Positions 997-48,273 of a stretch of DNA of 64,000 bases are shown here, one piece after another (position 1 is the first letter of the stretch; each line of letters starts with the position of its first letter). The translations under genes and the position numbers were made by a program. The notes below the pieces were generated by a model, which was not told the origin of the DNA, searched no databases, and worked only from the letters and a program-made list of their open reading frames with translations. Source of the DNA: Gammaproteobacteria bacterium. GTDB lineage: Bacteria > Pseudomonadota > Gammaproteobacteria > Francisellales > CACEW01. The stretch lies in NCBI GenBank assembly GCA_029240715.1, contig JARDZR010000006.1, positions 1,104 through 65,103 of the forward strand. The letters run 5' to 3'.

Positions 997-3312
997 TTAA
1001 TCCTTTCCTGGCAGCACTGTGGCAGTCTGCTCTTGGTTGTTTTGGGCGTGTTCGCCAGCATTTAATGCGGGTGCAAAAGTGATGGCAGCCATCGCTCTTT
1101 CAGCAGAGTTAAGACTTGGGCTTGCTATGATTGGGCTTGAAAGTTGCACATGCTCTGTTTCTTCCTCTAAAGCGTAAATGGCTAGATCTAGTATAATTTC
1201 CCCAATTAAAACTTTGTCTTGCTCGCTTATTGAAGATTCCTGATTAAGCAAACGCGCTATTTTTTCATTCAATGCAGAAAGGTCGCTAACCTGATCAAGG
1301 TTAATCCGACGCTTGGCAAGCAGAACAAAACAGTTTATCGCATTAGAGCGTACGGTTGGGTTTTCATGAATAAAGAGATCTGCAACACTGTCCATTAGCC
1401 CAGCGCTTTCACCGGCAAGCTTTAGGTTTTCTGCATGAGATTTAATCAATTCAAATAAGGCTGTTAAGGCATTACCTTGGGCTTGATAATTGGCATGGTT
1501 TTTAAGGACGGGCACTAAGGCTTTGAAAATTTTTGGGTTTTTGCCAAGAAGCTCTTGGTTTTCAGGATTGTTTTTAGCAAGCTGCGCCAGTTGGAAAGTT
1601 GCATTTCTTTGTAAATCTGCATATTCAGCATGGGTATCTGATATAGCATCCAGCAGCTTTGTTTGAACAGAAGGGTTGGCTGCAATCATAGTAAAAGTAG
1701 AAGGGTGGCCATTTGTCAGCAAAGATAAAACTCTTAAGCTGTTAATGTTTGATAGTTCCGGGCTGTTGAGGCTGTTTAAAAAATATTTAAGGTCCACTTT
1801 GGCAAGGACCGCAGCTTGTCGATCCGAATTCTCCCCGGCAACACATTCTAAAGCAAGGATCAATTGATTTTTGATTTCAGAATGAGCAGAGCTTTCTAAA
1901 ACAGCGATGACGTTATTGATAAACTCTGGGTGAGCAAGCATTCTGGCTTGATAGTCAGTGTTAAATGCGGTCAAATTTTCGATGGCTAGAGCTGTTTTGT
2001 ATAAAATTTCAAGATGATTGCTTTTAAGGGAAGTGATGAGCTGCTCAGTCAATCTAGCGTCCAAAAAATCGGTGTGCTTAAACGATAAAGCATTAATGAG
2101 TGAAAGTGCGGATAATTTTGAATGTTGTTCTTGGTTTGTATTTTCATGATTGCGTGGCCCTGAGACATGAAAGTAAAGTAAGCTATTGAGAGCCTCGACA
2201 ACAATTTGCATTTGGGTGTCGGATAATAAAAAATCAGGATCTTTGAGGGCCAATTGCTCTATAATATTGCAAGCAAAGATTTTAACGCTTATGTTGCTGC
2301 TCGCCAGCACTTCGATAATAAAATTATTCAACAGTGCATTTTTGCTAAGAACTGATATATCACCTGATGAGGTATCTGCTAAAGTTCTTAATATATATAA
2401 GGCCCGCAGAATTTGCGGTACGGCATCCGCTTCTTTGGCATAATCTTTAAGAAGTGCTGCAAGAGTCGAGATTGCCACAGGGCTTTGTGCAATTCTTGTT
2501 CTTAATAAAGCTGAATTAATTAATTCAGCCAAAATCATCAGAAAGTTGTAGTTTAGCTTTGGGTCCTTGTATTTAAATGCTTCAAAAATCTCAAGAACAG
2601 GCATGTTAATAAAAAGGCTTGCAGCATGAGGAGTTAATTTATTTAACATAAACAAAATTTCATTCACATGAGCTTGTATTTTTTTTGGTTTTTCTATGCT
2701 GGGATCTGCTTTTAAAAGTAAGCAGGCATTTTTAAGCAAGTCTGGATGGGCCAAAACAATTTTTTGACTATCTGGTAGCATCAATAAATTATTTAAAAGA
2801 ACGAGTGCATTGGCTTTTGCTTCAAATGAAGCAAGGGCATCACTCATGATTCCCGCGAGTATATCAAACACATTTAGCCCATTAACCTTGGTGCTTACAG
2901 CTATTTTTGAATTTGCTTCATGCGCCCTAATTAGTTGGAGTAAACCTGCTACAAGGCCAGAAAATGCTGGATGAGTTTTTAGCTTGGCTAGTTTTGATAT
3001 GAGGATTTGAATGATATCCGTTTTTGAGCCAACGTGATTTTGATTCAGCTTGTGGTTTTTTACTAAAATGCTGACGGCCATCGCAGCAGTAGCTATGTTC
3101 CCATTGGTTTCGTAATCGCTGGCTAAAATTGACCTCAATGCATGAAAAATCTCACGGTCACCCAATGCGCTTTGCATGCCTGGCTTTGGGATGGGAATGT
3201 CTGAAAATGGCTGGTCAGCGCATAAAAATATAATTTGATTTAATGCGGTTGATCTCAGTGCTGGATCACGGCTATGAAGCTGTGAGAGTAAGTCGTTAAT
3301 TTTTCCCTGCAT
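997..3312 (-). CDS. Armadillo/HEAT-repeat protein (eukaryote-like, candidate secreted effector)
   Basis: 771 aa from ATG 3312, with AAGGAA about 7 nt upstream; the track start at 3342 is TTG. The protein is all-helical. It has at least 6 degenerate ~40-aa repeats of the ARM pattern N/DxxxQxx(L/I)xxxPxxxxxL(V/I)xxL, e.g. NTDYQARMLAHPEFINNVIAVLES, NSDRQAAVLAKVDLKYFLNSLNS, NPENQELLGKNPKIFKALVPVLKN. No enzymatic motif was seen. Confidence 0.6.
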   Translation of the reverse strand: MQGKINDLLSQLHSRDPALRSTALNQIIFLCADQPFSDIPIPKPGMQSALGDREIFHALRSILASDYETNGNIATAAMAVSILVKNHKLNQNHVGSKTDIIQILISKLAKLKTHPAFSGLVAGLLQLIRAHEANSKIAVSTKVNGLNVFDILAGIMSDALASFEAKANALVLLNNLLMLPDSQKIVLAHPDLLKNACLLLKADPSIEKPKKIQAHVNEILFMLNKLTPHAASLFINMPVLEIFEAFKYKDPKLNYNFLMILAELINSALLRTRIAQSPVAISTLAALLKDYAKEADAVPQILRALYILRTLADTSSGDISVLSKNALLNNFIIEVLASSNISVKIFACNIIEQLALKDPDFLLSDTQMQIVVEALNSLLYFHVSGPRNHENTNQEQHSKLSALSLINALSFKHTDFLDARLTEQLITSLKSNHLEILYKTALAIENLTAFNTDYQARMLAHPEFINNVIAVLESSAHSEIKNQLILALECVAGENSDRQAAVLAKVDLKYFLNSLNSPELSNINSLRVLSLLTNGHPSTFTMIAANPSVQTKLLDAISDTHAEYADLQRNATFQLAQLAKNNPENQELLGKNPKIFKALVPVLKNHANYQAQGNALTALFELIKSHAENLKLAGESAGLMDSVADLFIHENPTVRSNAINCFVLLAKRRINLDQVSDLSALNEKIARLLNQESSISEQDKVLIGEIILDLAIYALEEETEHVQLSSPIIASPSLNSAERAMAAITFAPALNAGEHAQNNQEQTATVLPGKD

Positions 3313-3550
3313 TTTAAAATTCCTTGAGTCGTTTTTAAGCAAATATTGTTTTTTAAAACAAACTACACGCTAATCCTATCATTTTATGTGAATGGGTTTA
3401 TACATGCATATACATAGCAGTATCCATACTATTGTTGGCTTTATAGGGGCTTCAAGGAGCTAGAGAGAACTGTGTTTTTGTCTGTATGACTTGATTGCTA
3501 ATGAGCGTTGAAAGTTTGTGAAATGATTAAAACTTCTAAAGGTCTTTAAT

Positions 3551-13553: not shown

Positions 13554-14582
13554 ATGCAAGGCAAGTCGGGACTTAAAAAAATCAATCCGCAACAGCAAAA
13601 ACCTTTTATTGATATGGCTTTTCAGGACCTCAAAAAAAGCATGAACGGCGCTTATTCATTTAGTCTTATGAATAACTTTTTTAAAAAACATCAAATGCTA
13701 GTCCAAACATTTTCCCCAGAAAACCGCGCCTATTATAAACAAAAGCTAAGCGAATTTCCTAAACAGTTTGCTGCTCAAACTAGCGTAAAAAGAGATAAAG
13801 TCATAACGAATATGCAAGCGACTGTGGCTAAGGCACAAGCTCTAAACACTATGGCTCAGGCAGTCATCGCTAAAGCCCCCCAAGTGAAATCCGCTCCTGT
13901 GCAACAGTCCCTTTTTTCCAAAATAGCCAGTGCCATTAGTGAGGCAGTAAAATCGACATTCAGCGCTATTTCAAGCTTATTTAGCAAGGCTAAAGCCACA
14001 GAAAATGCAGTAAGCCCAAGTAGCTCTGTTTTAATAGGCACGGCTCCCAATATTTTAGGCCCTAAAGCCTCAGAGCAAATCGTCACCGACGGTAGCCCAG
14101 CTTCTTATGCAAAGCTTGCCATGCCAAGCGAACCCGAGTTCACTGCGTTTAGAGAGCCTGCACCTACTATGTTAGGTGAACAAGCGGCTCAAAAAATTAT
14201 GGACGAGCTTGAAGCGCTGGCTGCGCGTGACTCAGCAAGCGCTGACTTATACCAGGCTCCTGTTATGAGCCAGGTTAGGGAACCTGAGGTCCAATTAACC
14301 GATTTAAGCCCAGATCAGGCTAAGCATTTAGCTGAAGCTTTGAATGAGGCTGAGGCAACTATAAACAGGGAAGGGGTTGCTGGCAGCTTAGCGCTTGATA
14401 TCCATGAAAATTTAAATAATATGCGGACAGATACTCAGCAATTAGCCTCAGCTTTAAATAAAGGAGTAGGCATAGCAGCAGGTACATTTGCTCAAGCTTC
14501 TAAGACATTACAGGATTTAAGCACTGAGCTTGATCGATCTGGACTGTCTAAGCTCGACAAGGATGACTTTGCTCCCCGCTAA
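13554..14582 (+). CDS. Hypothetical protein, low-complexity/probably disordered (orphan)
   Basis: 342-aa ORF with AGAGAGG upstream and an AT-rich region containing two TATAAT hexamers at 13501 and 13511. Rich in A/S/Q/K, with no signal peptide, TM segment or recognisable motif. Confidence 0.5.
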   Translation: MQGKSGLKKINPQQQKPFIDMAFQDLKKSMNGAYSFSLMNNFFKKHQMLVQTFSPENRAYYKQKLSEFPKQFAAQTSVKRDKVITNMQATVAKAQALNTMAQAVIAKAPQVKSAPVQQSLFSKIASAISEAVKSTFSAISSLFSKAKATENAVSPSSSVLIGTAPNILGPKASEQIVTDGSPASYAKLAMPSEPEFTAFREPAPTMLGEQAAQKIMDELEALAARDSASADLYQAPVMSQVREPEVQLTDLSPDQAKHLAEALNEAEATINREGVAGSLALDIHENLNNMRTDTQQLASALNKGVGIAAGTFAQASKTLQDLSTELDRSGLSKLDKDDFAPR

Positions 14583-21289: not shown

Positions 21290-21892
21290 ATGAAACTCAC
21301 CTATGTAACAGGCTATTTGTTAGCTATCGCTGCTGTGGTACAAAGTCAGTTGCTTGCAAAAAAGCAGGCATTTATTGATGTTACCCAAGACCCGCATCCT
21401 TCCGAATTTGCCGATATCACGACCTTATATACCGGAGCACCGGCTGATAGTTGTATTCTAGGTTTTGAATTGGGCCGTTTGGACCACGATGTAGCTGAGC
21501 AACAGATTTTACAAAAAGGAGCGTATTTGCCTTTATTAGCAACAGCTGGTTCTGGCTTTCCCAACGCCACGCATTACTTAGGTGCGCCTGATTATAATGA
21601 GCAAATGTATTGCACATTTAGCCCTAAATTAAAACTGCAGTTTGATGCTGATCCAAGTTGTGAGGTAAATCCAGGCAATATAAGTTGCGTGGAAGGTCAA
21701 ACCTATATAGTTGCCAAATCAGAACAAGCTTATGGGGTTGTTATCAAAAATATTGGCGATAAGTATCAAGGGGTTTTTGGAAGCTTTTCGCTATTGCAGG
21801 AGGAAAGCGGACTAGCTGGGAAATTTCATTGTAGAAAAGCCCGCAGTTCAGAAACCTTGGGTAGCTCGAAATTTGATCAGGCTGCGCCTTGA
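21290..21892 (+). CDS. Hypothetical secreted protein (signal peptide, 6 Cys)
   Basis: ATG 21290 after GAAAGGGA gives MKLTYVTGYLLAIAAVVQSQLLA, a signal-peptide-like N-terminus. The track's longer start overlaps tmk. No recognisable domain. Confidence 0.55.
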   Translation: MKLTYVTGYLLAIAAVVQSQLLAKKQAFIDVTQDPHPSEFADITTLYTGAPADSCILGFELGRLDHDVAEQQILQKGAYLPLLATAGSGFPNATHYLGAPDYNEQMYCTFSPKLKLQFDADPSCEVNPGNISCVEGQTYIVAKSEQAYGVVIKNIGDKYQGVFGSFSLLQEESGLAGKFHCRKARSSETLGSSKFDQAAP

Positions 21893-21967
21893 GCAAGCTT
21901 TCGAGTATTTGATATGCTGCTATAGGTTTAGCGAGCCAACGGAACATAATAAAACGGGAGATAAAAT

Positions 21968-22834
21968 ATGCAAGGTTTTTCCATAAAAAAAGCTGTTATT
22001 GCAACAGTTGCTGCTTGTGCTGCTGTAACTAAAAGTGCTTTAGCGCAAGATTCGTTCGGTTTTGTAGGGGCAAATCATACTTATGTGAGCAGTAACGACG
22101 GAGAAGCTGTTAATCTTTTTAACGGCACAGGTCTTGTCGGGGGCAATGATACCCTCGGCTATACTCTTGGCTTTACCGCTACATTTACTGCGATTGATCC
22201 TTCTGCCGCTAATTGTAGCATGGCGGTCGGCAACCAAACATTAGTGCTGGGTTCGCATCAAGCTAACGGCACTTTACCCATCCTGAATATTACTTCCGAA
22301 GGGATGGCTAACCAAACCCTGGCTAACTTTAGCTCAATTTGTTACGGCAACGATACCTTGGCAATAAGTGTTTCCGCATTAAATGGTGAAACTTCTGCCA
22401 ATAATACTTTGCTAGCTACCCAAGATAACTATGAGACGCCTGCTCCTTCTGGAGATTGCGTGAATGGAACAGTGACAGGCGTGCCGTTAATGGAAAAGGT
22501 AACTTTAGGTAAGTCCTTTACTACTTCTGGAATAGGATTTAAAGCAACAGGTTCTGGAGATGTTACGCCGTTCTGTGACTTTTCACAGGTTTCAAAAGCA
22601 TGTCCGGACGGATGGAATGCCACAGAAAGTTTTTGTGAAGGAAAAACGGCAGCAGCTGAGCAATTACCTCAGTCATTGAATAACGTGGTGGTCGTCAATC
22701 AAAAGTTACTTGTAGGAAAATCCGGAGAGGTGAACTGTTACTTAAAACAAGAAGCTTGTCCAATATTTGGTAATTTTACCTTGGCAAAAGTTTTGGGCAT
22801 TGCTTTAGAACAGTCCCCGCAAGCAGCATTGTAA
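21968..22834 (+). CDS. Hypothetical secreted protein, Asn-x-Ser/Thr-rich, 8 Cys in the mature part
   Basis: GGGAGA SD and signal peptide MQGFSIKKAVIATVAACAAVTKSALA. 14 of 23 Asn lie in N-x-S/T, and the motif N-x-T-L recurs six times. Followed by a strong terminator. Confidence 0.6.
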   Translation: MQGFSIKKAVIATVAACAAVTKSALAQDSFGFVGANHTYVSSNDGEAVNLFNGTGLVGGNDTLGYTLGFTATFTAIDPSAANCSMAVGNQTLVLGSHQANGTLPILNITSEGMANQTLANFSSICYGNDTLAISVSALNGETSANNTLLATQDNYETPAPSGDCVNGTVTGVPLMEKVTLGKSFTTSGIGFKATGSGDVTPFCDFSQVSKACPDGWNATESFCEGKTAAAEQLPQSLNNVVVVNQKLLVGKSGEVNCYLKQEACPIFGNFTLAKVLGIALEQSPQAAL

Positions 22835-24260: not shown

Positions 24261-25301
24261 ATGATAGAGCTTAAGGCGGTTAATAAATCTTATCATAGCA
24301 AACTGGCTAAGTTTCATGCTTTAAAAGACATTAACCTGAAGGTCGCCAAAGGCGAAATTTATGGCATTATTGGCAGGTCTGGGGCTGGAAAAAGCACATT
24401 GATCCGCTGCGTTAATTTATTGGAAAGGCCAGATAGCGGTGAAGTCATCGTGGATGGAGTAGATTTATTAAAGCTCAATCCGGCTGCTCTGCGTGAAAAG
24501 CGGCATTCCATCGGCATGATTTTCCAGCATTTCAACTTATTACATTCCCGAACAGTCTATGACAATGTAGCCTTGCCTTTAGAATTAATCAGCATTGGTA
24601 AGCCTTATATCGCTAAAAGGGTCAATGCTTTGTTGGAGTTAACGGGTTTGGCTTCTCATAAAAACCACTATCCGCATCAGCTAAGCGGTGGGCAAAAGCA
24701 AAGGGTGGCAATAGCCAGAGCTTTGGCAACTTCTCCCAAAGTTTTATTAAGCGATGAAGCGACTTCCGCTTTAGACCCTGAAACGACTCGCTCAATTTTA
24801 AATTTGCTTAAAAAAATAAACCAAGAGCTTAATCTGACCATTTTACTGATTACCCACGAAATGGATGTTATCAAAAGCATTTGTGACAGGGCAGGCATTT
24901 TAGATCAGGGAGGGCTGATTGAAGAAGCCCCGGTATTGCAACTATTTGCAAGGCCAAAATCTGAGGTAGCTAAAAAATTTACTCAGTCTGCTTTGCATAT
25001 TCAATTGCCGGAAAGCTTAAGAGAAAGGTTGCAGGCCCAGGTTTTCCCTAATTCAAGGCCTATTGTTAAATTGACCTTTTTGGGGGAAAAAGCAGAGGAG
25101 CCTATTGTGGTCAGTTTAATGACACGCTTTAACGTGACCACCAATATTTTGCAGGCCAACTTAGAAATGGTTGGGCATTCTCCGGTAGGTATGACCATTT
25201 GTGAGCTATGGGGCACTCCAGGAGCTATCGAGCATAGCCTTGAATTTATTAAATCTCAAAATATACAGGTGGAGGTATTAGGCTATGTCTCAACTCATTA
25301 A
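24261..25301 (+). CDS. metN: Methionine ABC transporter ATP-binding protein
   Basis: Walker A GRSGAGKST, signature LSGGQKQRVAIARAL, Walker B LLSDEATSALD, and a C-terminal NIL/ACT-like domain (ILQANLE....G...CEL.G). Confidence 0.92.
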   Translation: MIELKAVNKSYHSKLAKFHALKDINLKVAKGEIYGIIGRSGAGKSTLIRCVNLLERPDSGEVIVDGVDLLKLNPAALREKRHSIGMIFQHFNLLHSRTVYDNVALPLELISIGKPYIAKRVNALLELTGLASHKNHYPHQLSGGQKQRVAIARALATSPKVLLSDEATSALDPETTRSILNLLKKINQELNLTILLITHEMDVIKSICDRAGILDQGGLIEEAPVLQLFARPKSEVAKKFTQSALHIQLPESLRERLQAQVFPNSRPIVKLTFLGEKAEEPIVVSLMTRFNVTTNILQANLEMVGHSPVGMTICELWGTPGAIEHSLEFIKSQNIQVEVLGYVSTH

Positions 25302-26745
25302 TTCCGATCTGTATCTAGCTTTATGGCAAACCATTTATATGGTGTTTATCTCAAGTTTTTTAAGCCTTATTTTAGGCTTGGGGCTTGGGGTGGCTTTATT
25401 TATCACTCGCCCTAATCAATTATTAGCTTCTCCTTCCTTAAATAAAGTGTTGGGAAGCATAGTGAATATCACTCGCTCGGTGCCTTTTGTAATTTTGATG
25501 ATTGGCATTATTCCCTTAACCAGGCTTTTGGTGGGCAGCACAATCGGTAGCAATGCCGCTATTGTGCCTTTAACTTTAGCGGCCATTCCCTTTTTTGCCA
25601 GAATTGCCGAAACTGCGCTGTCTGAAGTGGACCTCGGTTTAATTGAGGCTGCTGAAGCGATGGGGGCTACTCCCTGGCAAATTATTTTTAAAGTGCTGGT
25701 TCCAGAGGCTTTGCCAAGCCTGATTTCCGGAGCGACTTTGACCATTATCAGCTTAATCAGTTATTCGGCGATGGCTGGGGCAGTAGGCGGAGGAGGATTA
25801 GGAGATTTGGCTATCCGCTATGGCTATCAACGTTTTGATGTGATAGTGATGCTGGAAACCGTTGTCATTCTTGTTATTTTGGTACAAATGGTGCAAATGC
25901 TGGGAGATTATTCGGCCAAACTCCGAAGCTTAAGAGGCTTTGCTGTCTTGAGTATAGTTTTGTGGTTGTGCTGTATATTCGCTTGGTCTTATTCCTATTT
26001 TGCTGCACCTAAACAAGACAGTTTAAAAGTAGGAATTATGTCAGGTACAGAAGAGCAGGTGATGCAGGTGGCGCAGCAAGTTGCGGCCAAGCAGTATAAT
26101 TTAAACCTACAGCTTGTGACTTTTGATGACTATATTTTGCCTAATACGGCCCTTAATTTTGGCAATATTGATGCCAATATTTTCCAAACTATTCCCTATT
26201 TAAATAACCAAATCGCTCAAAGGCATTATCAGATTGCCTGGATTGCCAAAACCTTTGTTTACCCAATGGGCCTGTTCTCTAAAAAATATAATAATCTTAA
26301 CGCCTTGCCATATGGAGCTATCGTAGCGATTCCTAATGACCCTAGCAATGAAGGCAGGGCTTTATTGCTGCTGCAAAAGGCCGGTTTGATTAAACTGAAT
26401 CCAACAGCAGGTTTGTTCGGCACGCCAAGTGATGTGATTAGCAATCCTAAAAATATACAGCTTAAGGCTTTAGACGCCGCTAGTATTCCAAGAGCTTTGC
26501 CTGATGTGGATTTGGCCGCAATTACCAATGACTACGTGGCCCCGTCCGGCTTAAATTTAACTCAGGCCTTATTTAAAGAAGATGCCAGCGCACCCTATGC
26601 CAATATAATTGTGGTGAGAACTCAAGACCAGAACAACCCGCTGCTTCAAAAGCTCGTTGCAGTGATGCATTCGCCTGAAGTCATTAAAGTCACTGCACAG
26701 CTCTATCCAAGTGGCGCGGCGATTCCAGCTTGGACGGCAAGTTGA
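25285..26745 (+). CDS. Fused methionine ABC transporter permease (MetI) and substrate-binding protein (MetQ/NlpA family)
   Basis: Residues 1-215 are collinear with E. coli MetI (RS.PF.IL, VGTSIG..AAIVPLT, EA..AMGATP.QI..KVL.PEALP, YSAM.GAVG.GGLG). A hydrophobic segment follows (FAVLSIVLWLCCIFAW). Residues from about 245 to 486 are collinear with MetQ (KVG.....E..V..VA.....Y.L...LV.F.DY.LPN.AL..G.IDAN.FQ, PNDP.N.GR.LLLLQK.GLIKL, NPKN). There is no stop codon between the parts. Confidence 0.85.
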   Translation: MSQLINSDLYLALWQTIYMVFISSFLSLILGLGLGVALFITRPNQLLASPSLNKVLGSIVNITRSVPFVILMIGIIPLTRLLVGSTIGSNAAIVPLTLAAIPFFARIAETALSEVDLGLIEAAEAMGATPWQIIFKVLVPEALPSLISGATLTIISLISYSAMAGAVGGGGLGDLAIRYGYQRFDVIVMLETVVILVILVQMVQMLGDYSAKLRSLRGFAVLSIVLWLCCIFAWSYSYFAAPKQDSLKVGIMSGTEEQVMQVAQQVAAKQYNLNLQLVTFDDYILPNTALNFGNIDANIFQTIPYLNNQIAQRHYQIAWIAKTFVYPMGLFSKKYNNLNALPYGAIVAIPNDPSNEGRALLLLQKAGLIKLNPTAGLFGTPSDVISNPKNIQLKALDAASIPRALPDVDLAAITNDYVAPSGLNLTQALFKEDASAPYANIIVVRTQDQNNPLLQKLVAVMHSPEVIKVTAQLYPSGAAIPAWTAS

Positions 26746-27358: not shown

Positions 27359-27778
27359 TTACTGGTTGCCGGGTTCAGGTGTAAAATGGATCCCGCCTTC
27401 AGCATCAACGTATAGTTTGCTTGTTGCTGCTGTTTCTTCTGCTCTCGCTGCCGCTGGCTCTGTAGGCACGATAGGGCTGTTGAGCATTGCGCCAAACAAA
27501 AGGCTGCTTTTGCTAATCGGGCTAAGTAATGCTTCCAAAGCTTGTCTCTCTGTTAGTTCTCGAACAAATTGAGTAACTCTGCTGTCGTTTGAAACAGAAA
27601 TAGGAAGATAGTTAATTTCTGGGGTGCGTATGACTGAAATGTTCCTGATCGATTCACTAAGATTTTTTATATGTTCATCCATTTTACAGGTATCAAATTG
27701 GACCGTTATGTTAGAGCTTAAGGCACGCACTTCCTCTGTAGCCTGAGCTTCACCTGTTTGAGCATTATTGCCATTCAT
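27359..27778 (-). CDS. Hypothetical protein (third gene of an orphan operon)
   Basis: 139-aa ORF with GGGGAA SD. Its stop codon abuts the tsaB stop with 0 nt between them. No recognisable motif. Confidence 0.5.
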   Translation of the reverse strand: MNGNNAQTGEAQATEEVRALSSNITVQFDTCKMDEHIKNLSESIRNISVIRTPEINYLPISVSNDSRVTQFVRELTERQALEALLSPISKSSLLFGAMLNSPIVPTEPAAARAEETAATSKLYVDAEGGIHFTPEPGNQ

Positions 27779-27794
27779 AGATATTCCCCGTTAA

Positions 27795-28373
27795 TTAACG
27801 ATCGTTGCCGTAAGCCTTATCTTTTCCAGTAGCGGCCTCTGTCAGTAAAGAGTGAGCAGCCTCTGAAGGCATGCCGTCACTACCTTGTCTAAATCGAATA
27901 AAAGCAGCGGCTAGTTGAGCTTGGGCTGCTTTTTCTTCTTGAGCTTGCCGTTGCGCCTCTGCTATAAGTGCCCTGGTCTTAGAGATCAAATCATGATTGT
28001 CTTGCATAATCGCTTTGAACACATCATCGGTTTGATCTGCAAATTCTTTAAAAAGCGCCCAGTGTTTTTCGCTATATAAGCTTATCAATTGCTTGTGAGC
28101 TACTTTGGCAGGGCCGCTGACTGTGCTCTCAGCGCTTAATAAAAGTTTGAGAAAATCTAAATTCTGTTCTTCGGTTAGCGTGATAAACATAACAGATTGA
28201 TCAGGATGAATGCTGTTACTGTTGCATCTTTCTACTAAGTCTTCGAGTTCTCTGATAAAGGGGTCTTTTTTGCAGCAAAGTGCTTGAGCCATTGAGCTGA
28301 ATATAGATTGATTTGCTGCATATTGAGTTAGAACTGCATCAAGGCTATCAATAGCGATTTTAATTCCTGCCAT
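27795..28373 (-). CDS. Hypothetical protein, helical/coiled-coil (second gene of an orphan operon)
   Basis: 192-aa ORF with AAGGAGAAACACC-ATG SD. The C-terminal third is Ala/Gln/Glu-rich (AEAQRQAQEEKAAQAQLAAA). No recognisable motif. Confidence 0.55.
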   Translation of the reverse strand: MAGIKIAIDSLDAVLTQYAANQSIFSSMAQALCCKKDPFIRELEDLVERCNSNSIHPDQSVMFITLTEEQNLDFLKLLLSAESTVSGPAKVAHKQLISLYSEKHWALFKEFADQTDDVFKAIMQDNHDLISKTRALIAEAQRQAQEEKAAQAQLAAAFIRFRQGSDGMPSEAAHSLLTEAATGKDKAYGNDR

Positions 28374-41993: not shown

Positions 41994-43529
41994 ATGTTAG
42001 GATCAGATGGCATGGGTACAGAAGTGGGAAGCAGCTTGGCAGCTCGAAGAGCCTCATCTGCAAGTTTAACAGCGGGAGCAGCTTCGGCGGGTAGCGCAGC
42101 TTCGCAGTCATTAGCTGCGACAGCCTGGTACGCTGAATATCAGGAATATTACAATGAGTTAAAGGTAGCTGTGGTTAAGCTTTGGAATGCACAGCCTGCA
42201 GTCGGTGATCCAGCTAGCTTAAGACATGTTAGAGCGAAAGGGCAAGAGAATAGCACAGTGAACCTGTTCAAAGCTCCCCACTACAAGGCAGAAGAAGCTA
42301 AAGACATTGCAGAGAAGTGGTATGGAAAAATTCCAGCGGATATGAATTTTTCTGCTGCTGCTAACACTGAGCTTAATAAAACGATTGAAGCGATAACGAA
42401 AATTTTGCGTGAATATATCACGGAGTCAAAAGGCCGTTGGTTTGTGGACCCTTTGAAAACAGCTGCTAAGTCTGAAATAGCCGAGCTGGCGATTCAATTT
42501 TTTGAAAAAATCAGAGCAGATGAAGTTAGATCTTATCAAGTGCGTGCCTATTGTGTAGAGAGAATGCTGCATGAGCTTGTAGTATTTGACTCTAAAGACG
42601 CAGGGAAAGGAAAGCATTTTCCGCAAGCTTTGCAAAAATGTCATTTAGCTTTAAATGAATATGAAAACAAGTTACTTGTTGATGCTGTTTCCCTTCCAGT
42701 TGATGCTGTTTCTCTTCCAGCGCCTTCATATGAAGCTCAATATCCAGCAGCAGCTGCGGCAGCTGTTCCTGCTCCAGCTGTTGCATCTGACGCGCCATCT
42801 CTAACTGTAGCTACGGCTGCTGCTCCAGTTTCTGCTGCCGCAACAACAGGAAGTGCTGCCGATACAGCCGCAGTATCTCCTGGGAAAAAGCGTCGTGCTC
42901 AATGGCTTTCGCTGTTTGGCGGTGGCGCTGCTGCTCCAGCTCCAGCAGAAGCTGCTGTCGGCGCTGCAGAAGCGCTTGATACTAGATGGTCTCCATCGTT
43001 TGGCGCTGCTGTTGGCGCAGCTGCTCCAGCATCTGCTTCAGCTGGAAGCACAGACAGCACTGTAGTGGCTGACAAAACTCGAACTTCTTCTATAGCGGAT
43101 GCTACTGTTGCAGCCAATGCAGCTGCAGCTGCCGTCGCTGCTCTTTCTGCTAGCATAGGACAGCCAGATCAAGTAGCTGTAGCAATCCCTGTTGGTGCAA
43201 GTGAAAGCAAGTCTCAGGAAGCGGCTCCTGCTATCGTTGCTGCCCCTGCTGCAGAAGCTCATGCAGCTGCTCCTGCTCCAGGGCTGGTTGCTCAAATAGC
43301 AGGAAAAGCCCAAGATTTAGTAAGGACTTTGTCTGCTTTGAGTGGTTCAAGCCATGGCCGTGCAAGTGCGGGCAGCGTTGAAGAAGCTGGTGTTGCTCAG
43401 GGTCAAGCGGCCGAAGGGCTTGTTTTGCCAGATGTGGCACCAGTTCAAGGTGCATTTGCAGCTGTCGCCCGGCGCTCGCCTGTCGCAGCTGAAAGTGAAG
43501 CTTCAAGTACCGCAGAAGCGGGACAGTAA
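41994..43529 (+). CDS. Hypothetical protein: helical N-domain plus long Ala/Ser/Pro/Val-rich low-complexity C-half (candidate effector)
   Basis: AGGAGG SD, 511 aa. Residues from about 230 to 511 are Ala-rich low complexity (about 40 percent Ala by eye) and include the tandem VDAVSLP-VDAVSLP. Followed by its own terminator. Confidence 0.6.
   Translation: MLGSDGMGTEVGSSLAARRASSASLTAGAASAGSAASQSLAATAWYAEYQEYYNELKVAVVKLWNAQPAVGDPASLRHVRAKGQENSTVNLFKAPHYKAEEAKDIAEKWYGKIPADMNFSAAANTELNKTIEAITKILREYITESKGRWFVDPLKTAAKSEIAELAIQFFEKIRADEVRSYQVRAYCVERMLHELVVFDSKDAGKGKHFPQALQKCHLALNEYENKLLVDAVSLPVDAVSLPAPSYEAQYPAAAAAAVPAPAVASDAPSLTVATAAAPVSAAATTGSAADTAAVSPGKKRRAQWLSLFGGGAAAPAPAEAAVGAAEALDTRWSPSFGAAVGAAAPASASAGSTDSTVVADKTRTSSIADATVAANAAAAAVAALSASIGQPDQVAVAIPVGASESKSQEAAPAIVAAPAAEAHAAAPAPGLVAQIAGKAQDLVRTLSALSGSSHGRASAGSVEEAGVAQGQAAEGLVLPDVAPVQGAFAAVARRSPVAAESEASSTAEAGQ
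42678..42719 (+). repeat. Perfectly adjacent 21-bp tandem duplication inside the CDS (2 copies, 1 mismatch)
   Basis: gttgatgctgtttcccttcca (42678-42698) is followed by gttgatgctgtttctcttcca (42699-42719), encoding VDAVSLP twice. Confidence 0.9.
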
Positions 43530-43645: not shown

Positions 43646-45259
43646 ATGTACGGAGATCATGATTCGATTTCGACAACGGTAGAAAAATTTGTCGCGGCCC
43701 CTGGGCTTAACGAAAGAATAGCGGCATTTTATAATTCTTTGCCTCAAGAAGTCCGTGATCAACTTGAGGCTACTACCATAGATATAATCTTTTCACAGGC
43801 GTCCTCTGAGTTTGAACAAAAATACCAGCCTGCACTGCAAGAATCTGTTGGCTTTGATTATGGGGTCGCTATTTTTGCAAGCTATGAAAAAACAATTTCT
43901 CAGTTAAAAGATGAATTGTCTCGACTGATTAAACTGGGGCTAGAGGATGAGGTTGGCAAAGAGTTTGCCAAGAAACTTGAACAGGACCATCAGGAAAAGA
44001 AAGCAATAATCAGTGAACTTTATATGGTTATTCCCATAAAACAAAAATGGGTCAAAATAGAGGCTGAATTGCTAGAAGCTGAGCAACAATTTAATGCAGC
44101 CATAGCGCCTTTAAAGCTAAAGTTAGACACCGAATTTATTATGCCTGCAAAAGAGGCTATGGATGATAAAGCCGCAGCTGAAGCAGCCTTTGGGGTTTAT
44201 GAAACAAGGCTTGCTAAGTTGTTTACATTTTTAAGCACAATAAGAACCCAAATAAAAAGCTGTGTTGAAGAAAGGCTTGTCAAGCAGCATGCCAATATAG
44301 AGTTTCTGAAAGCTATCTATAAATGCAGCGCTGAAAAAAAGCGCAGCCTACACCAAATTATTCATGCAAGTAAAATGGCTGTGTTAGACCTACAAGTTAA
44401 GTTCCTGGCAACTGCCAATGAAGGAGAAGAAGCCACTAAGCTTCAAAAAATAATGGAGGCTTTTGCAGCGGAAGGGACTGTCGATACTTGGAATAAAGAG
44501 TATTGTGAAGAGCGCGATAAAATTACAGAAGCCTATAAATGTCATGAAGTATTTGTCAAAATCCTTAGGGCTGATAAATCTTTTTTGCGTACAGTTGATG
44601 CTGCTAATTTTATGGCATATGTTCAAGCTAATAATACCGACTTAAAAGAATTCAACCAAGCTATGACAAGGGCTGATTTGAAATTTAAAGCCGTGGTACA
44701 AGACTATATCAACAAGCGTCAACCTAGCATATTAAAAGGCATGGTCCAATTTAATGTAACGGCAGAAGAAAAAATTAAATGGGCTAGAGTATTATTAACT
44801 TTCCTAGAACGTTTGCCAGAACGCCCATGGCTGCCCATTCAAAAGTTCTGGGCATTGTCGCAGTTAATTCATCAGCTTGAAAAGGCCAATCAAACTAAAT
44901 CCTTGTTAGCAGATCCTGGCACCCATTTCCCCAAATTAATGGCAGCCTGTAAGCTAATTTTGCTTGAACTAAAAGAGGCTTTGCCTGAGATTGTGTCGGC
45001 GCCTGAATCGCAATTTACAGTAGGCATTATGAGTACTGTAGCATTATATAGGCCAAGGTCTGGAACAGGCAGTACGACTGCAACCAGCTATACAGCTGAT
45101 GTCGCTAGCCCAGTCGGAGATAGCTTTCGCAGCTCAAGTTCACGCTTATCTGGAATCGCGGGGTCTTTTTTTAGGAAAGGGGGAGGCGCTGCCGCGTCTA
45201 GCCCAGCTGCCTCTGCTAACGGCGGAGCAGGAGGGGACGGCTTTGGCAATGTGTGTTAA
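43646..45259 (+). CDS. Hypothetical protein, all-alpha/coiled-coil with Ser/Gly/Ala-rich tail (candidate effector)
   Basis: 537-aa ORF with long helical heptad-like stretches. The last roughly 75 residues are S/T/G/A-rich and end GGAGGDGFGNVC. No recognisable motif. Confidence 0.55.
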   Translation: MYGDHDSISTTVEKFVAAPGLNERIAAFYNSLPQEVRDQLEATTIDIIFSQASSEFEQKYQPALQESVGFDYGVAIFASYEKTISQLKDELSRLIKLGLEDEVGKEFAKKLEQDHQEKKAIISELYMVIPIKQKWVKIEAELLEAEQQFNAAIAPLKLKLDTEFIMPAKEAMDDKAAAEAAFGVYETRLAKLFTFLSTIRTQIKSCVEERLVKQHANIEFLKAIYKCSAEKKRSLHQIIHASKMAVLDLQVKFLATANEGEEATKLQKIMEAFAAEGTVDTWNKEYCEERDKITEAYKCHEVFVKILRADKSFLRTVDAANFMAYVQANNTDLKEFNQAMTRADLKFKAVVQDYINKRQPSILKGMVQFNVTAEEKIKWARVLLTFLERLPERPWLPIQKFWALSQLIHQLEKANQTKSLLADPGTHFPKLMAACKLILLELKEALPEIVSAPESQFTVGIMSTVALYRPRSGTGSTTATSYTADVASPVGDSFRSSSSRLSGIAGSFFRKGGGAAASSPAASANGGAGGDGFGNVC

Positions 45260-47196: not shown

Positions 47197-48273
47197 ATGG
47201 TGAAGTTACGGCTCATTATAAAAACAATAGTATTGAGTTGCTTGCTGTTAGCTTTTAATCATAGCTGGGCAATGCAAAGCTATGGCCCCACTAAAGCCAA
47301 TGAAACTTTGTGGTCAATTGCTAGCCGGCATCATCCGGCTAAAGTCACAGTAGAGCAAACTGCTTTAGCAATCGTAAAGCTTAACCCTAAATCTTTCCAG
47401 GGCTCAGATTATGTTTTGCGCCTGCATTCTTACTTAAGGCTGCCTACTACTGCTTCTGAAGTTAAATCTGTTTTAGGCTTGACTGCTGTGAGTACAGCCA
47501 ATAGTAAAGCCAAGGCTTCAAGCAAGCTAAACAAGCCAGTAGTTAAGTCGGCGCGCACTGTTTCAAGCGCTAAGTCAGTCCATCCACATAAACTACCTAG
47601 CGCAGATCACCGCGCTGTTTCGCCGCAGCCAATGCCTCCTCAACAAGCTTATCTCTCTCAGATAGCGGAACTTAATCAACAACTGACTGCAGCCAATCAG
47701 CAGATTGCTTCTCTTCAGCAGCAATTATCAGATAGCAACAGTAATGTTAATGGTTTTCCTTGGGCAAGCCTTTGGTTTATTTTATGGGCTTTAACCAGCG
47801 TTTCTTTATATATGGTCTATCGTCGTTATAAATCTGCTGAAACAGTAGAAACGGAAGACGATGCAAACTTAAAAGCTCAATTAAAAGAAGCTCGAGGCAA
47901 AACTGAGCCTATTATTATTTCAGTATCGGAAAAAGAGCCCGAAAACCCATTCCAGCAAGGTGAGCTTGATATTCCTGCAAATGAAATTGGCTTGAATGAA
48001 CAAAGCTTGGCAGAAACTACCGACAATGAAACAGAGCAGGCAGAAGACATGCCGGCCACCCCCGAAATTCAAGCTCTGTTGCAGCAAATAGAAACGGATC
48101 CTTACAACTTAGAATTGCGCATGGAGCTGTTAGAGCTTTATGCTAATGCTTCTGATCAAGCGGGTTTTAACCAACAGTCACGAGAGATGTTAAATCACAA
48201 TCTAATGATGGAAGGTGATGAGGTTTGGTCTAAAGTGAGGGCTTTATATCTTAATACCTGGGTCTATGCCTAG
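47197..48273 (+). CDS. Short FimV/HubP-family protein (LysM-like N-domain, TM, FimV C-terminal motif)
   Basis: Signal/TM segment, then YGPTKANETLWSIASRHHPAKVTVEQTALAIVKLNPKSF (the FimV N-terminal LysM-like signature). A Q-rich coiled coil follows, then a TM segment (WASLWFILWALTSVSLYMVY), an acidic region and the C-terminal DPYNLELRMELLELY motif. Confidence 0.6.
   Translation: MVKLRLIIKTIVLSCLLLAFNHSWAMQSYGPTKANETLWSIASRHHPAKVTVEQTALAIVKLNPKSFQGSDYVLRLHSYLRLPTTASEVKSVLGLTAVSTANSKAKASSKLNKPVVKSARTVSSAKSVHPHKLPSADHRAVSPQPMPPQQAYLSQIAELNQQLTAANQQIASLQQQLSDSNSNVNGFPWASLWFILWALTSVSLYMVYRRYKSAETVETEDDANLKAQLKEARGKTEPIIISVSEKEPENPFQQGELDIPANEIGLNEQSLAETTDNETEQAEDMPATPEIQALLQQIETDPYNLELRMELLELYANASDQAGFNQQSREMLNHNLMMEGDEVWSKVRALYLNTWVYA

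What the first reader, a model, noticed from the sequence alone, without database searches (positions are those of the whole stretch)
21968..22834. Secreted protein in which 14 of 23 asparagines sit in N-x-S/T sequons, with a recurring N-x-T-L motif
Seen in the sequence:
- There is a signal peptide, and the mature part has 8 Cys.
- Sequons occur at N36, 52, 60, 82, 89, 100, 107, 115, 120, 128, 145, 166, 217 and 269.
- Six of them have the form N-x-T-L, spaced about 11-29 residues apart: NDTL, NQTL, NGTL, NQTL, NDTL, NNTL.

Established knowledge: N-x-S/T is the acceptor for eukaryotic OST and for bacterial cytoplasmic NGT/HMW1C-type glycosyltransferases. PglB additionally needs D/E at position -2, which is mostly absent here.

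Inference, three alternatives:
- a protein evolved to be N-glycosylated in the host secretory pathway or by an NGT
- a gene of eukaryotic origin
- a structural Asn-ladder repeat (beta-helix/solenoid) unrelated to glycosylation
Basis: partly seen in the sequence, partly recalled or inferred. Interest (0 to 1): 0.55.

Follow-up and report, generated by a model that had tools for sequence, protein, structure and literature searches.

The report
Sequon-rich exported bacterial beta-sandwich protein
A small exported protein of an uncultured, probably host-associated gammaproteobacterium carries far more N-x-T motifs than chance allows, on a beta-sandwich domain rather than a solenoid, which suggests but does not prove that it is a bacterial N-glycoprotein of a new family.

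Summary
The ORF 21968-22834 (+) encodes 288 aa with a Sec-type signal peptide, 8 Cys in the mature part and 14 of 23 Asn in N-x-S/T. Twelve of those are N-x-T, and seven (not six) are N-x-T-L. Shuffling gives p<1e-5.

The bias is directional: there is no T-x-N, and N-x-S is at chance. Among 1,528 ORFs from 1.35 Mb of gammaproteobacterial DNA this protein ranks first. Its only homologue in about 15 billion proteins (P0002, another bacterial contig) ranks second.

Residues about 27-162 form a new two-Cys domain of roughly 125-135 aa, present in four copies in P0002. AlphaFold models it confidently as a beta-sandwich, with weak resemblance to FimH/FmlH lectin domains. That refutes the solenoid or Asn-ladder idea.

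The 34 sequons in the five domain copies occupy 22 alignment columns, and only C-x-G-N-x-T is invariant. No sequon has D/E at -2, so this is not the classical PglB sequon. Codon usage is native and there is no eukaryotic homologue.

The best reading is an exported adhesin-like protein whose sequons are selected as N-glycosylation sites, most likely for an NGT-type enzyme encoded elsewhere. No glycosyltransferase was found in the window. A purely structural turn motif remains a serious rival.

The parts
21956..21961 (+). Shine-Dalgarno-like GGGAGA, 6 nt upstream of the ATG
   Evidence: Read directly from the sequence printed.
21968..22834 (+). CDS of the 288-aa sequon-rich exported protein (stop codon included)
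   Evidence: The identical protein is called on two independent metagenome assemblies. Protein-level homology to P0002 has E=1.6e-16.
21968..22045 (+). Sec-type signal peptide, residues 1-26 (MQGFSIKK / AVIATVAACAAV / TKSALA|QD)
   Evidence: By inspection of the translation. An alternative lipobox VAAC (14-17) exists, but only 8 uncharged residues separate K8 from C17. That is too short for the usual lipoprotein rules (my own application of the PROSITE PS51257 and G+LPP patterns; no predictor was run).
22046..22453 (+). N-terminal two-Cys beta-sandwich domain, residues 27-162. It carries 11 of the 14 sequons and 6 of the 7 N-x-T-L motifs. This is a new domain family with four further copies in P0002.
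   Evidence: homology and alignment. (AlphaFold2, pLDDT above 90 in the full-length run and 84.5 for the domain alone). (Foldseek). (sequon positions).
22340..22357 (+). C125-Y-G-N128-D-T130: the only sequon invariant in all five domain copies (C-x-G-N-x-T; the Cys is in four of the five). It sits in the two-residue hairpin loop between strands 122-126 and 129-139.
22454..22831 (+). C-terminal Cys-rich region, residues 163-288 (6 Cys, 3 sequons). The fold is unresolved. It shows weak similarity to a prealbumin-like SpaA_4 repeat around PDGWNAT..C.
   Evidence: pLDDT below 50. (P0003 repeat identified as PF24514 SpaA_4; pairwise E about 5e-6). The target itself has no Pfam hit.
21290..21892 (+). 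Upstream neighbour: an orphan 200-aa protein with a signal-peptide-like N-terminus and 5 Cys. It lies on the same strand, 75 bp upstream. Any functional link is unproven.
   Evidence: It is not a paralogue of the target, has no family hits and shows no sequon excess.

Best explanation
**Shown.** The gene is real and native. It encodes a Sec-exported protein of about 262 mature residues containing eight cysteines, and it has two parts.
- The N-terminal part (residues about 27-162) is a previously undescribed two-Cys beta-sandwich module. The same module occurs four times in tandem, separated by Pro-rich linkers, in the only detectable homologue.
- The C-terminal part is a Cys-rich region of unresolved fold.

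The extended motif [G/A]-N-x-T-[L/hydrophobic] is strongly and directionally over-represented in both proteins. It sits mostly at hairpin turns or within 0-5 residues before a beta-strand. Its positions differ between homologous domain copies.

**Inferred.**
- The eight cysteines imply disulfide bonding in the periplasm or outside the cell.
- The motifs are maintained by selection as N-glycosylation acceptor sites, so the mature protein carries a dense coat of Asn-linked sugar on an adhesin- or lectin-like domain.
- The L at +3 reflects the structural register. Asn sits in the turn, Thr is the first outward-facing residue of the strand, and Leu is the first residue facing the core.
- No sequon has D/E at -2, so the enzyme is not a Campylobacter-type PglB.
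- The most likely enzyme is a cytoplasmic HMW1C-like NGT (GT41) encoded elsewhere in the genome. It would add hexoses before Sec export, as happens for HMW1.
- The likely role is adhesion, or protection of a surface or secreted protein from host proteases and recognition. The bacterium's ARM, HEAT and ankyrin proteins point to life with a eukaryotic host.
For: - **Sequon excess.** 14 of 23 Asn are in sequons, p<1e-5.
- **Direction and residue specificity.** N-x-T z=7 with no T-x-N at all, and N-x-S at chance. P0002 shows the same pattern: N-x-T z=5.7, with T-x-N and N-x-S at chance.
- **Outlier status.** The target and its sole homologue rank first and second of 1,528 ORFs.
- **Specificity within the genomes.** Other envelope proteins of the same genomes show no excess.
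- **Positional turnover.** 34 sequons occupy 22 alignment columns, and only one column is invariant. This fits selection for number and density, not for fixed structural positions.
- **Placement.** 9 of the 11 sequon Asn in the N-domain lie 0-5 residues before a strand start or in a two-residue hairpin loop. These are the exposed sites that NGTs prefer (bioRxiv 10.1101/2020.09.10.281741, read).
- **Flanking residues.** None of 38 sequons has D/E at -2. The -1 residue is G or A in 10 of 14 and 13 of 24 sequons. This matches the G at -1 in the standard NGT acceptor peptides GGNWTT and FGNWTT.
- **Precedent.** The HMW1ct sequons named are N-x-T.
- **Export and fold.** The signal peptide and 8 Cys fit export. 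The fold is adhesin-like.
- **Host association.** ARM/HEAT and ankyrin proteins are encoded nearby.
Against: - No glycosyltransferase of any kind was found in the 64-kb window, in about 5.5 kb of extra flank, or on the 8.3-kb contig of the homologue. In the HMW1 and EtpA systems the NGT gene is adjacent to its substrate.
- Known NGT substrates are large beta-helical two-partner-secretion (TpsA) or autotransporter adhesins, not small beta-sandwich proteins.
- NGTs are not known to me in lineages of this kind.
- G-N is a favoured two-residue hairpin loop and Thr a favoured strand residue, so part of the motif has a structural rationale.
- The L at +3 is not a known requirement of any N-glycosylating enzyme.
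- The family has only two members, so the evolutionary argument rests on five domain copies.
Confidence: 0.4

Rival explanations
1. Purely structural motif, no glycosylation. [G/A]-N-x-T-L would be a recurrent hairpin-turn and strand-start solution in this beta-sandwich family. Asn would sit in a left-handed turn position or form an Asx-turn, Thr would be a beta-branched outward-facing first strand residue, and Leu would be the first core residue.
For: - Two of the motifs, including the only invariant one, lie in two-residue G-N hairpin loops.
- Most of the others lie just before strands.
- The +3 Leu preference (7 of 14 and 7 of 24) is more easily explained by structure than by any known enzyme.
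- No glycosyltransferase was found nearby.
Against: - Ordinary bacterial proteins show no such bias. The median fraction of Asn in sequons is 0.10 and the 95th percentile is 0.27 across 638 ORFs, against 0.61 here.
- Motif positions are not conserved between homologous copies of the same fold. That is unexpected if particular turns required the motif.
- N-x-S is not enriched, although Ser would serve an Asx/ST turn equally well.
Confidence: 0.3
2. Glycosylation by the eukaryotic host's oligosaccharyltransferase. The protein is released into an ER-derived vacuole, or reaches the host ER lumen, and its exposed N-x-T sites are modified there after translation.
For: - The sequons are of the eukaryotic type: N-x-T is preferred and there is no acidic residue at -2.
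- The genome neighbourhood is rich in eukaryote-like ARM/HEAT and ankyrin proteins and in orphan proteins, which suggests an intracellular lifestyle.
- Exogenous bacterial toxin subunits that reach the ER have been reported to become mannose-labelled, which was taken as evidence of N-glycosylation (PMC4247254, read).
Against: - There is no evidence on where this bacterium lives.
- A bacterial Sec signal delivers the protein to the periplasm, and no route to the OST active site is shown.
- OST acts mainly on unfolded chains, whereas this domain has a disulfide and should fold in the periplasm.
- I know of no natural precedent for a bacterial protein evolved for this.
Confidence: 0.1
3. Periplasmic glycosylation en bloc by a PglB/STT3-like oligosaccharyltransferase with a relaxed sequon that has no requirement at -2.
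For: - The protein is exported, and its sequons lie in turns that would be accessible on a folded periplasmic protein.
- From my own knowledge, and not checked here, some non-Campylobacter PglB enzymes are reported to tolerate sequons without an acidic -2 residue.
Against: - None of 38 sequons has D/E at -2.
- No pglB-like gene or glycan-assembly cluster lies in the window.
- Other exported proteins in the window show no sequon signal, which argues against a general system.
- As far as I know, PglB systems are not typical of Gammaproteobacteria.
Confidence: 0.08
4. The modified residue is the Thr, not the Asn. N-x-T-L would be the recognition motif of an O-glycosyltransferase or another Thr-modifying enzyme, by analogy with the Bacteroidetes D-(S/T)-(A/I/L/V/M/T) O-glycosylation motif.
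For: - T-L itself is over-represented: 9 observed against 2.4 expected. Seven of those nine are preceded by N-x.
- Thr is used and Ser is not.
- Two sites are N-D-T-L, which contains D-T-L.
Against: No such motif is known in Proteobacteria. Asn at -2 is the most constant position, which fits an Asn-centred sequon better. No enzyme candidate was found.
Confidence: 0.05
5. A relic of a gene acquired from a eukaryote, in which the sequons were selected in the donor.
For: The sequon style is eukaryotic and the genomic context is probably host-associated.
Against: - GC (0.434), GC3 (0.339) and codon usage are typical of the window.
- An exhaustive search of 1.84 billion representative proteins found no eukaryotic relative. 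The only homologue is on a bacterial contig.
- The bias persists, at different positions, in two proteins only about 30% identical. That indicates continuing selection in bacteria.
Confidence: 0.03
6. A beta-solenoid with an internal Asn ladder.
For: The N-x-T-L motifs recur every 11-17 residues between residues 89 and 145.
Against: - Confident AlphaFold2 models give a beta-sandwich with a helix.
- Foldseek hits are lectin, pilin and cohesin sandwiches.
- The Asn positions are not conserved among domain copies.
- The domain is a discrete two-Cys module separated by Pro-rich linkers in P0002.
Confidence: 0.01

Closest known systems
HMW1/HMW2 adhesins with HMW1C (cytoplasmic N-glycosyltransferase, GT41), and related NGT substrates (A. 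pleuropneumoniae autotransporters, ETEC EtpA/EtpC)
   Same: An exported bacterial surface or adhesin-type protein with many N-x-S/T sequons, mostly N-x-T. There is no acidic residue at -2. The sites lie in exposed turns. Export is Sec-dependent, which is compatible with modification in the cytoplasm beforehand.
   Different: The protein is small (27 kDa mature) and a beta-sandwich, not a >100-kDa beta-helix. There is no adjacent NGT or TpsB gene and no sequence similarity. The presence of an NGT in this genome is unknown.
Campylobacter-type general N-glycosylation (PglB; sequon D/E-x-N-x-S/T)
   Same: An Asn-x-Ser/Thr core on an exported protein.
   Different: The defining -2 acidic residue is absent from all 14 sequons here and from all 24 in the homologue. 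No pgl genes lie in the window. The signal is confined to one protein rather than spread across the periplasmic proteome.
Densely N-glycosylated eukaryotic and viral surface glycoproteins ('glycan shields', e.g. HIV Env; LAMPs)
   Same: Very high sequon density: 11 in about 135 residues. There is a strong N-x-T preference. Sites turn over in position between homologous copies while the density is kept.
   Different: The gene is bacterial with native codon usage and a bacterial signal peptide. There is no eukaryotic or viral homologue.
FimH/FmlH lectin domains of chaperone-usher pilus adhesins
   Same: These are the best Foldseek matches to the N-terminal domain. Both are elongated beta-sandwiches of similar size (about 140-160 residues).
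   Different: The TM-score is only 0.43-0.47, rmsd about 6-8 A, and sequence identity 7-14%. There is no pilin domain and no usher or chaperone context. The resemblance may be a generic beta-sandwich similarity.
Prealbumin-like fold domains of surface proteins (Pfam SpaA_4, PF24514)
   Same: A stretch of about 60 residues in the C-terminal half aligns with the ...PDGW(N/D)xT..C part of such repeats.
   Different: The similarity is below Pfam thresholds. The database E-value is inflated by ten repeats in the hit. AlphaFold gives no confident fold for this half.

Membership tests
NGT (HMW1C-like) substrate adhesins | Multiple N-x-S/T acceptor sequons without a -2 acidic requirement, in exposed positions | tested here: met
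   There are 14 sequons, none with D/E at -2. Nine of the 11 in the N-domain lie at turns or strand starts of the model.
NGT (HMW1C-like) substrate adhesins | A GT41 HMW1C-like N-glycosyltransferase encoded in the genome, often adjacent to the substrate | tested here: inconclusive
   None was found among the ORFs of at least 150 aa in the 64-kb window or in about 5.5 kb of extra flank. The rest of the genome is not available.
NGT (HMW1C-like) substrate adhesins | Beta-helical TpsA or autotransporter passenger architecture with a dedicated outer-membrane transporter | tested here: not met
   The model is a beta-sandwich. There is no TPS domain, no autotransporter barrel and no TpsB neighbour.
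NGT (HMW1C-like) substrate adhesins | Asn-linked hexose actually present on the protein | not testable with these tools
   This requires mass spectrometry of the native protein.
PglB-type N-glycoproteins | Extended sequon D/E-x1-N-x2-S/T | tested here: not met
   0 of 14 sequons in the target and 0 of 24 in P0002 have D or E at -2.
PglB-type N-glycoproteins | pglB (STT3-like) and a lipid-linked glycan assembly locus | tested here: inconclusive
   Absent from the window. The whole genome is not available.
Beta-solenoid / Asn-ladder repeat proteins | Regular tandem repeats forming a solenoid, with a conserved stacked Asn | tested here: not met
   The AlphaFold2 models are a sandwich and Foldseek returns no solenoids. 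Only 1 of the 22 sequon columns is conserved in all five copies.
FimH/FmlH-type lectin domain | Same fold (TM-score at least 0.5) and detectable sequence or profile relationship | tested here: inconclusive
   The best TM-score is 0.43-0.47 with E about 1e-4. The PDB profile search found no sequence hit.
FimH/FmlH-type lectin domain | Sugar-binding pocket residues, and a pilin domain with chaperone-usher context | not tested
No usher or chaperone genes are adjacent.
SpaA_4 prealbumin-like fold domain (PF24514) | Score above the Pfam gathering threshold | tested here: not met
   The target has no Pfam hit even at E up to 1. There is only a pairwise similarity to one SpaA_4 repeat protein.
Sec (SPase I) secreted protein | Positively charged n-region, hydrophobic h-region and an A-x-A cleavage motif | tested here: met
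   By inspection of the translation: KK at residues 7-8, a 12-residue h-region and ALA|Q at 24-26/27. No signal-peptide predictor was available.
Bacterial lipoprotein | A lipobox preceded by a sufficiently long uncharged h-region | tested here: inconclusive
   VAAC at 14-17 matches the lipobox. Only 8 uncharged residues follow K8, which fails the PROSITE PS51257 and G+LPP spacing rules as I applied them by hand. No predictor was run.
Gene of eukaryotic origin | Eukaryotic homologues and/or foreign composition | tested here: not met
   No eukaryotic hit among 1.84 billion representatives. GC, GC3 and codon usage are native.

The most novel reading that the evidence does not exclude
An uncultured, host-associated gammaproteobacterial lineage makes small exported adhesin-like proteins that have evolved a eukaryote-style 'glycan shield'. 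The shield would be installed in one of two ways. Either the host's own oligosaccharyltransferase modifies the protein after release into an ER-derived compartment, or a so far undescribed bacterial Asn-glycosylation system recognises [G/A]-N-x-T-L. In either case this would be a new class of bacterial N-glycoprotein, on a new domain family.
Probability: 0.15. Interest if true: 0.85.

Novelty: new variant of a known kind. Interest (0 to 1): 0.5.

Why it matters
Bacterial N-glycosylation is known from only a few systems: PglB in Epsilonproteobacteria and Deltaproteobacteria, and NGT on large adhesins of Pasteurellaceae and a few other groups.

A sequon signal this strong is notable on its own. 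It sits on a new, compact beta-sandwich domain in an uncultured lineage with eukaryote-like effector genes, and it is shared by the protein's only homologue. That makes it a concrete and cheaply testable lead to a new N-glycoprotein class and to its enzyme.

If the enzyme is the host's, it would be the first bacterial protein known to be shaped by selection for host N-glycosylation.

If the motif is purely structural, it is a caution. Extreme and direction-specific N-x-T enrichment could then arise without any glycosylation.

Tried and rejected
**Searches that found no relatives or no family**
- Word-indexed homology search with the protein found nothing. The same search with the five-copy domain profile also found nothing.
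- Searching with P0002 returned only P0002 itself.
- The GTDB species-representative genome scan found no relative of the target.
- Pfam, NCBIfam and a PDB sequence-profile search gave no hits for the target.
- Foldseek against viral models returned only generic sandwiches.

**Hypotheses rejected**
- Paralogy with the upstream orphan.
- Beta-solenoid.
- Recent horizontal transfer or eukaryotic origin.
- An ice-binding-like T-x-T or T-x-N array: T.T is at chance and there is no T.N.
- A general sequon bias of exported proteins in either genome.

**Attempts that did not help**
- Taxonomy could not be pinned down. Thymidylate kinase (Tmk) is at most 63% identical to any GTDB representative, and the best hits are scattered across Gammaproteobacteria.
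- The sample accessions appear in no paper held.
- Literature searches for sequon-rich proteins of intracellular bacteria, or for NGT homologues in Legionellales, gave nothing specific.
- Extending the window with exact-protein look-ups added only about 5.5 kb, with no glycosyltransferase.
- An OTU-like reading of the ankyrin protein's C-terminus was not confirmed by Pfam.
- Model coordinates were not exposed to the scripts, so solvent exposure of the Asn could not be computed.
Full report
**1. The observation**

The ORF at 21968-22834 (+) is 288 aa with an ATG start. A GGGAGA ribosome-binding site lies 6 nt upstream.
- There are 23 Asn, and 14 of them are in N-{P}-S/T at residues 36, 52, 60, 82, 89, 100, 107, 115, 120, 128, 145, 166, 217 and 269.
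- Twelve are N-x-T and two are N-x-S.
- There are seven N-x-T-L motifs, not six. NFTL at 269 was missed.
- There are nine Cys: one (C17) in the signal peptide and eight in the mature chain.

By inspection the N-terminus is a Sec signal. It has an n-region MQGFSIKK, a 12-residue h-region and an A-L-A|Q-D cleavage site after residue 26. A lipobox-like VAAC at 14-17 exists, but it follows only eight uncharged residues. I judge that too short by the usual lipoprotein rules. No predictor was available.

**2. Is it more than chance?**

Yes.
- 100,000 shuffles of the protein give a mean of 4.0 sequons (sd 1.75, maximum 13) against 14 observed.
- The bias is directional and residue-specific. N-x-T is 12 observed against 2.3 expected (z=7). 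T-x-N is 0 against 2.3. N-x-S is 2 against 1.9. N-S/T, N-x-x-S/T, Q-x-S/T and T-x-T are all at chance. N-x-T-L is 7 against 0.2.
- In the other window ORFs 13.7% of Asn lie in sequons, against 61% here.
This ORF is the top outlier (binomial p=3.4e-7). The best unrelated ORF reaches only 2e-3, as expected for that number of tests.

**3. Is the gene real and native?**

The identical protein is called on two independent assemblies: JGI 3300042923 and Logan SRR35179801. Both have the same neighbours, fabF-tmk-orphan-target-MFS-metN. The DNA is 99.99% identical, so there is no population variation to exploit. GC (0.434), GC3 (0.339) and synonymous codon choice lie within the spread of the window's genes. 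This argues against recent transfer from a eukaryote.

**4. Relatives**

- The word-indexed search of 5.8 billion protein clusters found nothing. The GTDB species-representative genomes hold no relative.
- An exhaustive phmmer search of 1.84 billion representatives found three hits: a fragment of the same protein (P0001), P0002 and P0003.
- P0002 (816 aa, E=1.6e-16) matches residues 42-165. P0003 is a 1,502-aa repeat protein that matches residues 185-226.
- P0002 lies on an 8.3-kb contig of 44% GC. Its neighbours are bacterial: two OMP beta-barrels, FolB, a Methyltransf_28 protein and an MFS transporter.
- P0002 contains four tandem copies of the same two-Cys domain of roughly 125-135 aa, separated by Pro-rich linkers. 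The copies are 15-30% identical to the target domain.
- P0002 is also N-x-T-rich: N-x-T z=5.7, with T-x-N and N-x-S at chance. It ranks second of the 1,528 background ORFs.
- No further members were found with the five-copy profile or with P0002 as the query. Pfam, NCBIfam and PDB sequence searches are empty.
- The P0003 repeat is a SpaA_4 prealbumin-like domain. Its similarity to the target's ...PDGWNAT..C stretch is weak (pairwise E about 5e-6). The database E-value is inflated by ten repeats. I treat it as a hint only.

**5. Structure**

AlphaFold2 was run with the five-sequence alignment.
- In the full-length run, residues about 30-155 have pLDDT above 90. In a domain-only run the mean pLDDT is 84.5. 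Both runs give the same secondary structure: ten beta-strands and one helix at 111-119.
- The C-terminal half (162-288) is not modelled (pLDDT below 50).
- Foldseek against the PDB gives beta-sandwich domains. The best are the FmlH and FimH lectin domains, followed by CooA pilin, cohesins and others. E is about 1e-4, but TM-scores are only 0.43-0.47. Viral models add nothing specific.
- The fold is therefore a sandwich, possibly lectin- or adhesin-like, and not a solenoid. It is not met.

**6. Anatomy of the motif**

I mapped the sequons on the model's secondary structure.
- N89 and N128 sit in two-residue G-N hairpin loops.
- N36, N52, N60, N120 and N145 lie 1-5 residues before a strand.
- N82 and N100 are first strand residues.
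- N107 is near a strand end and N115 is in the helix.

So N-x-T-L reads as turn Asn, x, first outward-facing strand residue (Thr), first core-facing residue (Leu). That explains the Leu.

The flanks are also shared by both proteins. The -1 residue is G or A in 10 of 14 sequons in the target and 13 of 24 in P0002. The -2 residue is never D or E in any of the 38 sequons.

Across the five homologous domain copies, the 34 sequons occupy 22 alignment columns. Seven columns are shared by at least two copies, three by at least three, and only C-x-G-N-x-T (target N128) by all five. The number of sites is therefore maintained while their positions drift.

**7. Context**

The window is an ordinary bacterial chromosome segment. 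It carries tgt/queA, secDF, zipA, ligA, the fab cluster, tmk, metNI, gshAB, recJ, accA, tilS, prfA, lolB, prs, L25 and pth.

It also encodes an ARM/HEAT-repeat protein of 781 aa, an ankyrin-repeat protein, a second ankyrin protein just outside the window, and at least seven orphans. Tmk is at most 63% identical to any GTDB representative, with best hits scattered over Gammaproteobacteria. I infer an uncultured, probably eukaryote-associated gammaproteobacterium. This inference is not proven.

None of the ORFs of at least 150 aa in the window is a glycosyltransferase. The same holds for the extra flank of about 5.5 kb and for the P0002 contig. Other exported or envelope proteins of either organism show no sequon excess, so the signal is specific to this family.

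**8. Interpretation**

The following observations fit selection for an enzyme-recognised Asn-x-Thr sequon, that is N-glycosylation, better than a fixed structural role:
- the excess is directional and specific to Thr;
- it recurs in a homologue only 30% identical;
- sequon positions turn over between domain copies;
- the sites are at turns and strand starts;
- comparable bias is absent from about 1,500 other ORFs.

The complete lack of -2 D/E excludes the classical PglB sequon. An NGT-type cytoplasmic enzyme fits the sequon. It also fits the G at -1 (compare the standard acceptor peptides GGNWTT and FGNWTT), the preference for exposed sites, and Sec export after modification.

Against this, known NGT substrates are large beta-helical adhesins with the enzyme often encoded next door, and no enzyme was found here.

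The structural alternative is real. G-N is a favoured hairpin loop, Thr is a favoured strand residue, and the +3 Leu is structural. I give it 0.3.

Host-OST glycosylation is conceivable for an intracellular bacterium. A bacterial toxin subunit that reaches the ER has been reported to acquire mannose label (PMC4247254). But no route to the OST is shown here, so I give it 0.1.

A relaxed PglB-like system gets 0.08, a Thr-centred modification 0.05, a eukaryotic relic 0.03 and a solenoid 0.01.

**9. Novelty and score**

The domain family is new: it has no Pfam, NCBIfam or PDB relative and only two proteins in about 15 billion. The phenomenon, a sequon-dense exported bacterial protein, resembles NGT substrates most closely. 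It differs from them in fold, size, gene context and lineage. I therefore classify it as a new variant of a known kind.

Interest is moderate at 0.5. It is a clean and statistically robust anomaly with a cheap decisive experiment. The enzyme and the modification itself remain unshown, and a structural explanation cannot be excluded.

Noticed in passing
window 15313/15314 (compare L001 2178-2363): The window lacks 186 bp that are present in the otherwise 99.99%-identical JGI contig. The missing piece covers the 3' end of rpmF (L32) and the 5' end of plsX, so both essential genes look truncated in the window. It is probably an assembly artefact or deletion in the window's source.
   Followed up: partly
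window 61597/61598 (compare L084 546-759); ORFs 60716-61606 and 61603-61908: A second gap of 214 bp relative to a JGI contig splits an ankyrin-repeat protein into two ORFs. In L084 it is one ORF of at least 355 aa. Its C-terminal part carries DGNCGF ... NHFDSL motifs reminiscent of an OTU or papain-like cysteine protease, but Pfam does not confirm this.
   Followed up: partly
window 997-3342 (-), 60716-61606 (+); L085 668-2161: Eukaryote-like repeat proteins cluster here: a 781-aa ARM/HEAT protein, an ankyrin protein, and a second ankyrin protein just left of the window. This suggests a host-associated (Legionellales-like) lifestyle.
   Followed up: partly
window 21290-21892 (+): An orphan 200-aa protein lies directly upstream of the target on the same strand. 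It has a signal-peptide-like N-terminus and 5 Cys. It has no family hits and no similarity to the target. Whether the two are co-transcribed or functionally linked is unknown.
   Followed up: partly
window 41994-43529 (+) and 43646-45259 (+): Two adjacent orphan proteins (511 and 537 aa) have no signal peptide. The first is very Ala-rich, with gene GC 0.50 but GC3 only 0.29. They are not significantly similar to each other. They look like effector candidates.
   Followed up: partly
window 13554-14582 (+), 27359-27778 (-), 27795-28373 (-): Three more orphan ORFs have no Pfam or NCBIfam hit. The 139-aa one has 4 of its 10 Asn in N-x-S sequons, which is not significant.
   Followed up: no
window 25285-26745 (+): The methionine ABC permease domain (BPD_transp_1) is fused in one 486-aa ORF to an NlpA-type substrate-binding lipoprotein domain.
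   Followed up: no
window 53890-55191 (-): A bacterial member of the MATCAP / DUF1704 family (microtubule-associated tyrosine carboxypeptidase family), E=5e-126.
   Followed up: no
window 47197-48273 (+) and 50697-52928 (-): One is a FimV/HubP-core-containing protein of 358 aa. The other is a 743-aa protein with only an N-terminal ParA/MinD-like ATPase domain, and the rest is unassigned.
   Followed up: no
L083 423-2873 (P0002): The only homologue has no recognisable signal peptide or transmembrane helix in its first 150 residues, which are coiled-coil-like and then mildly hydrophobic. Yet it carries four disulfide-type, sequon-rich domains. Its export route is unclear, and the called start may be wrong.
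   Followed up: no
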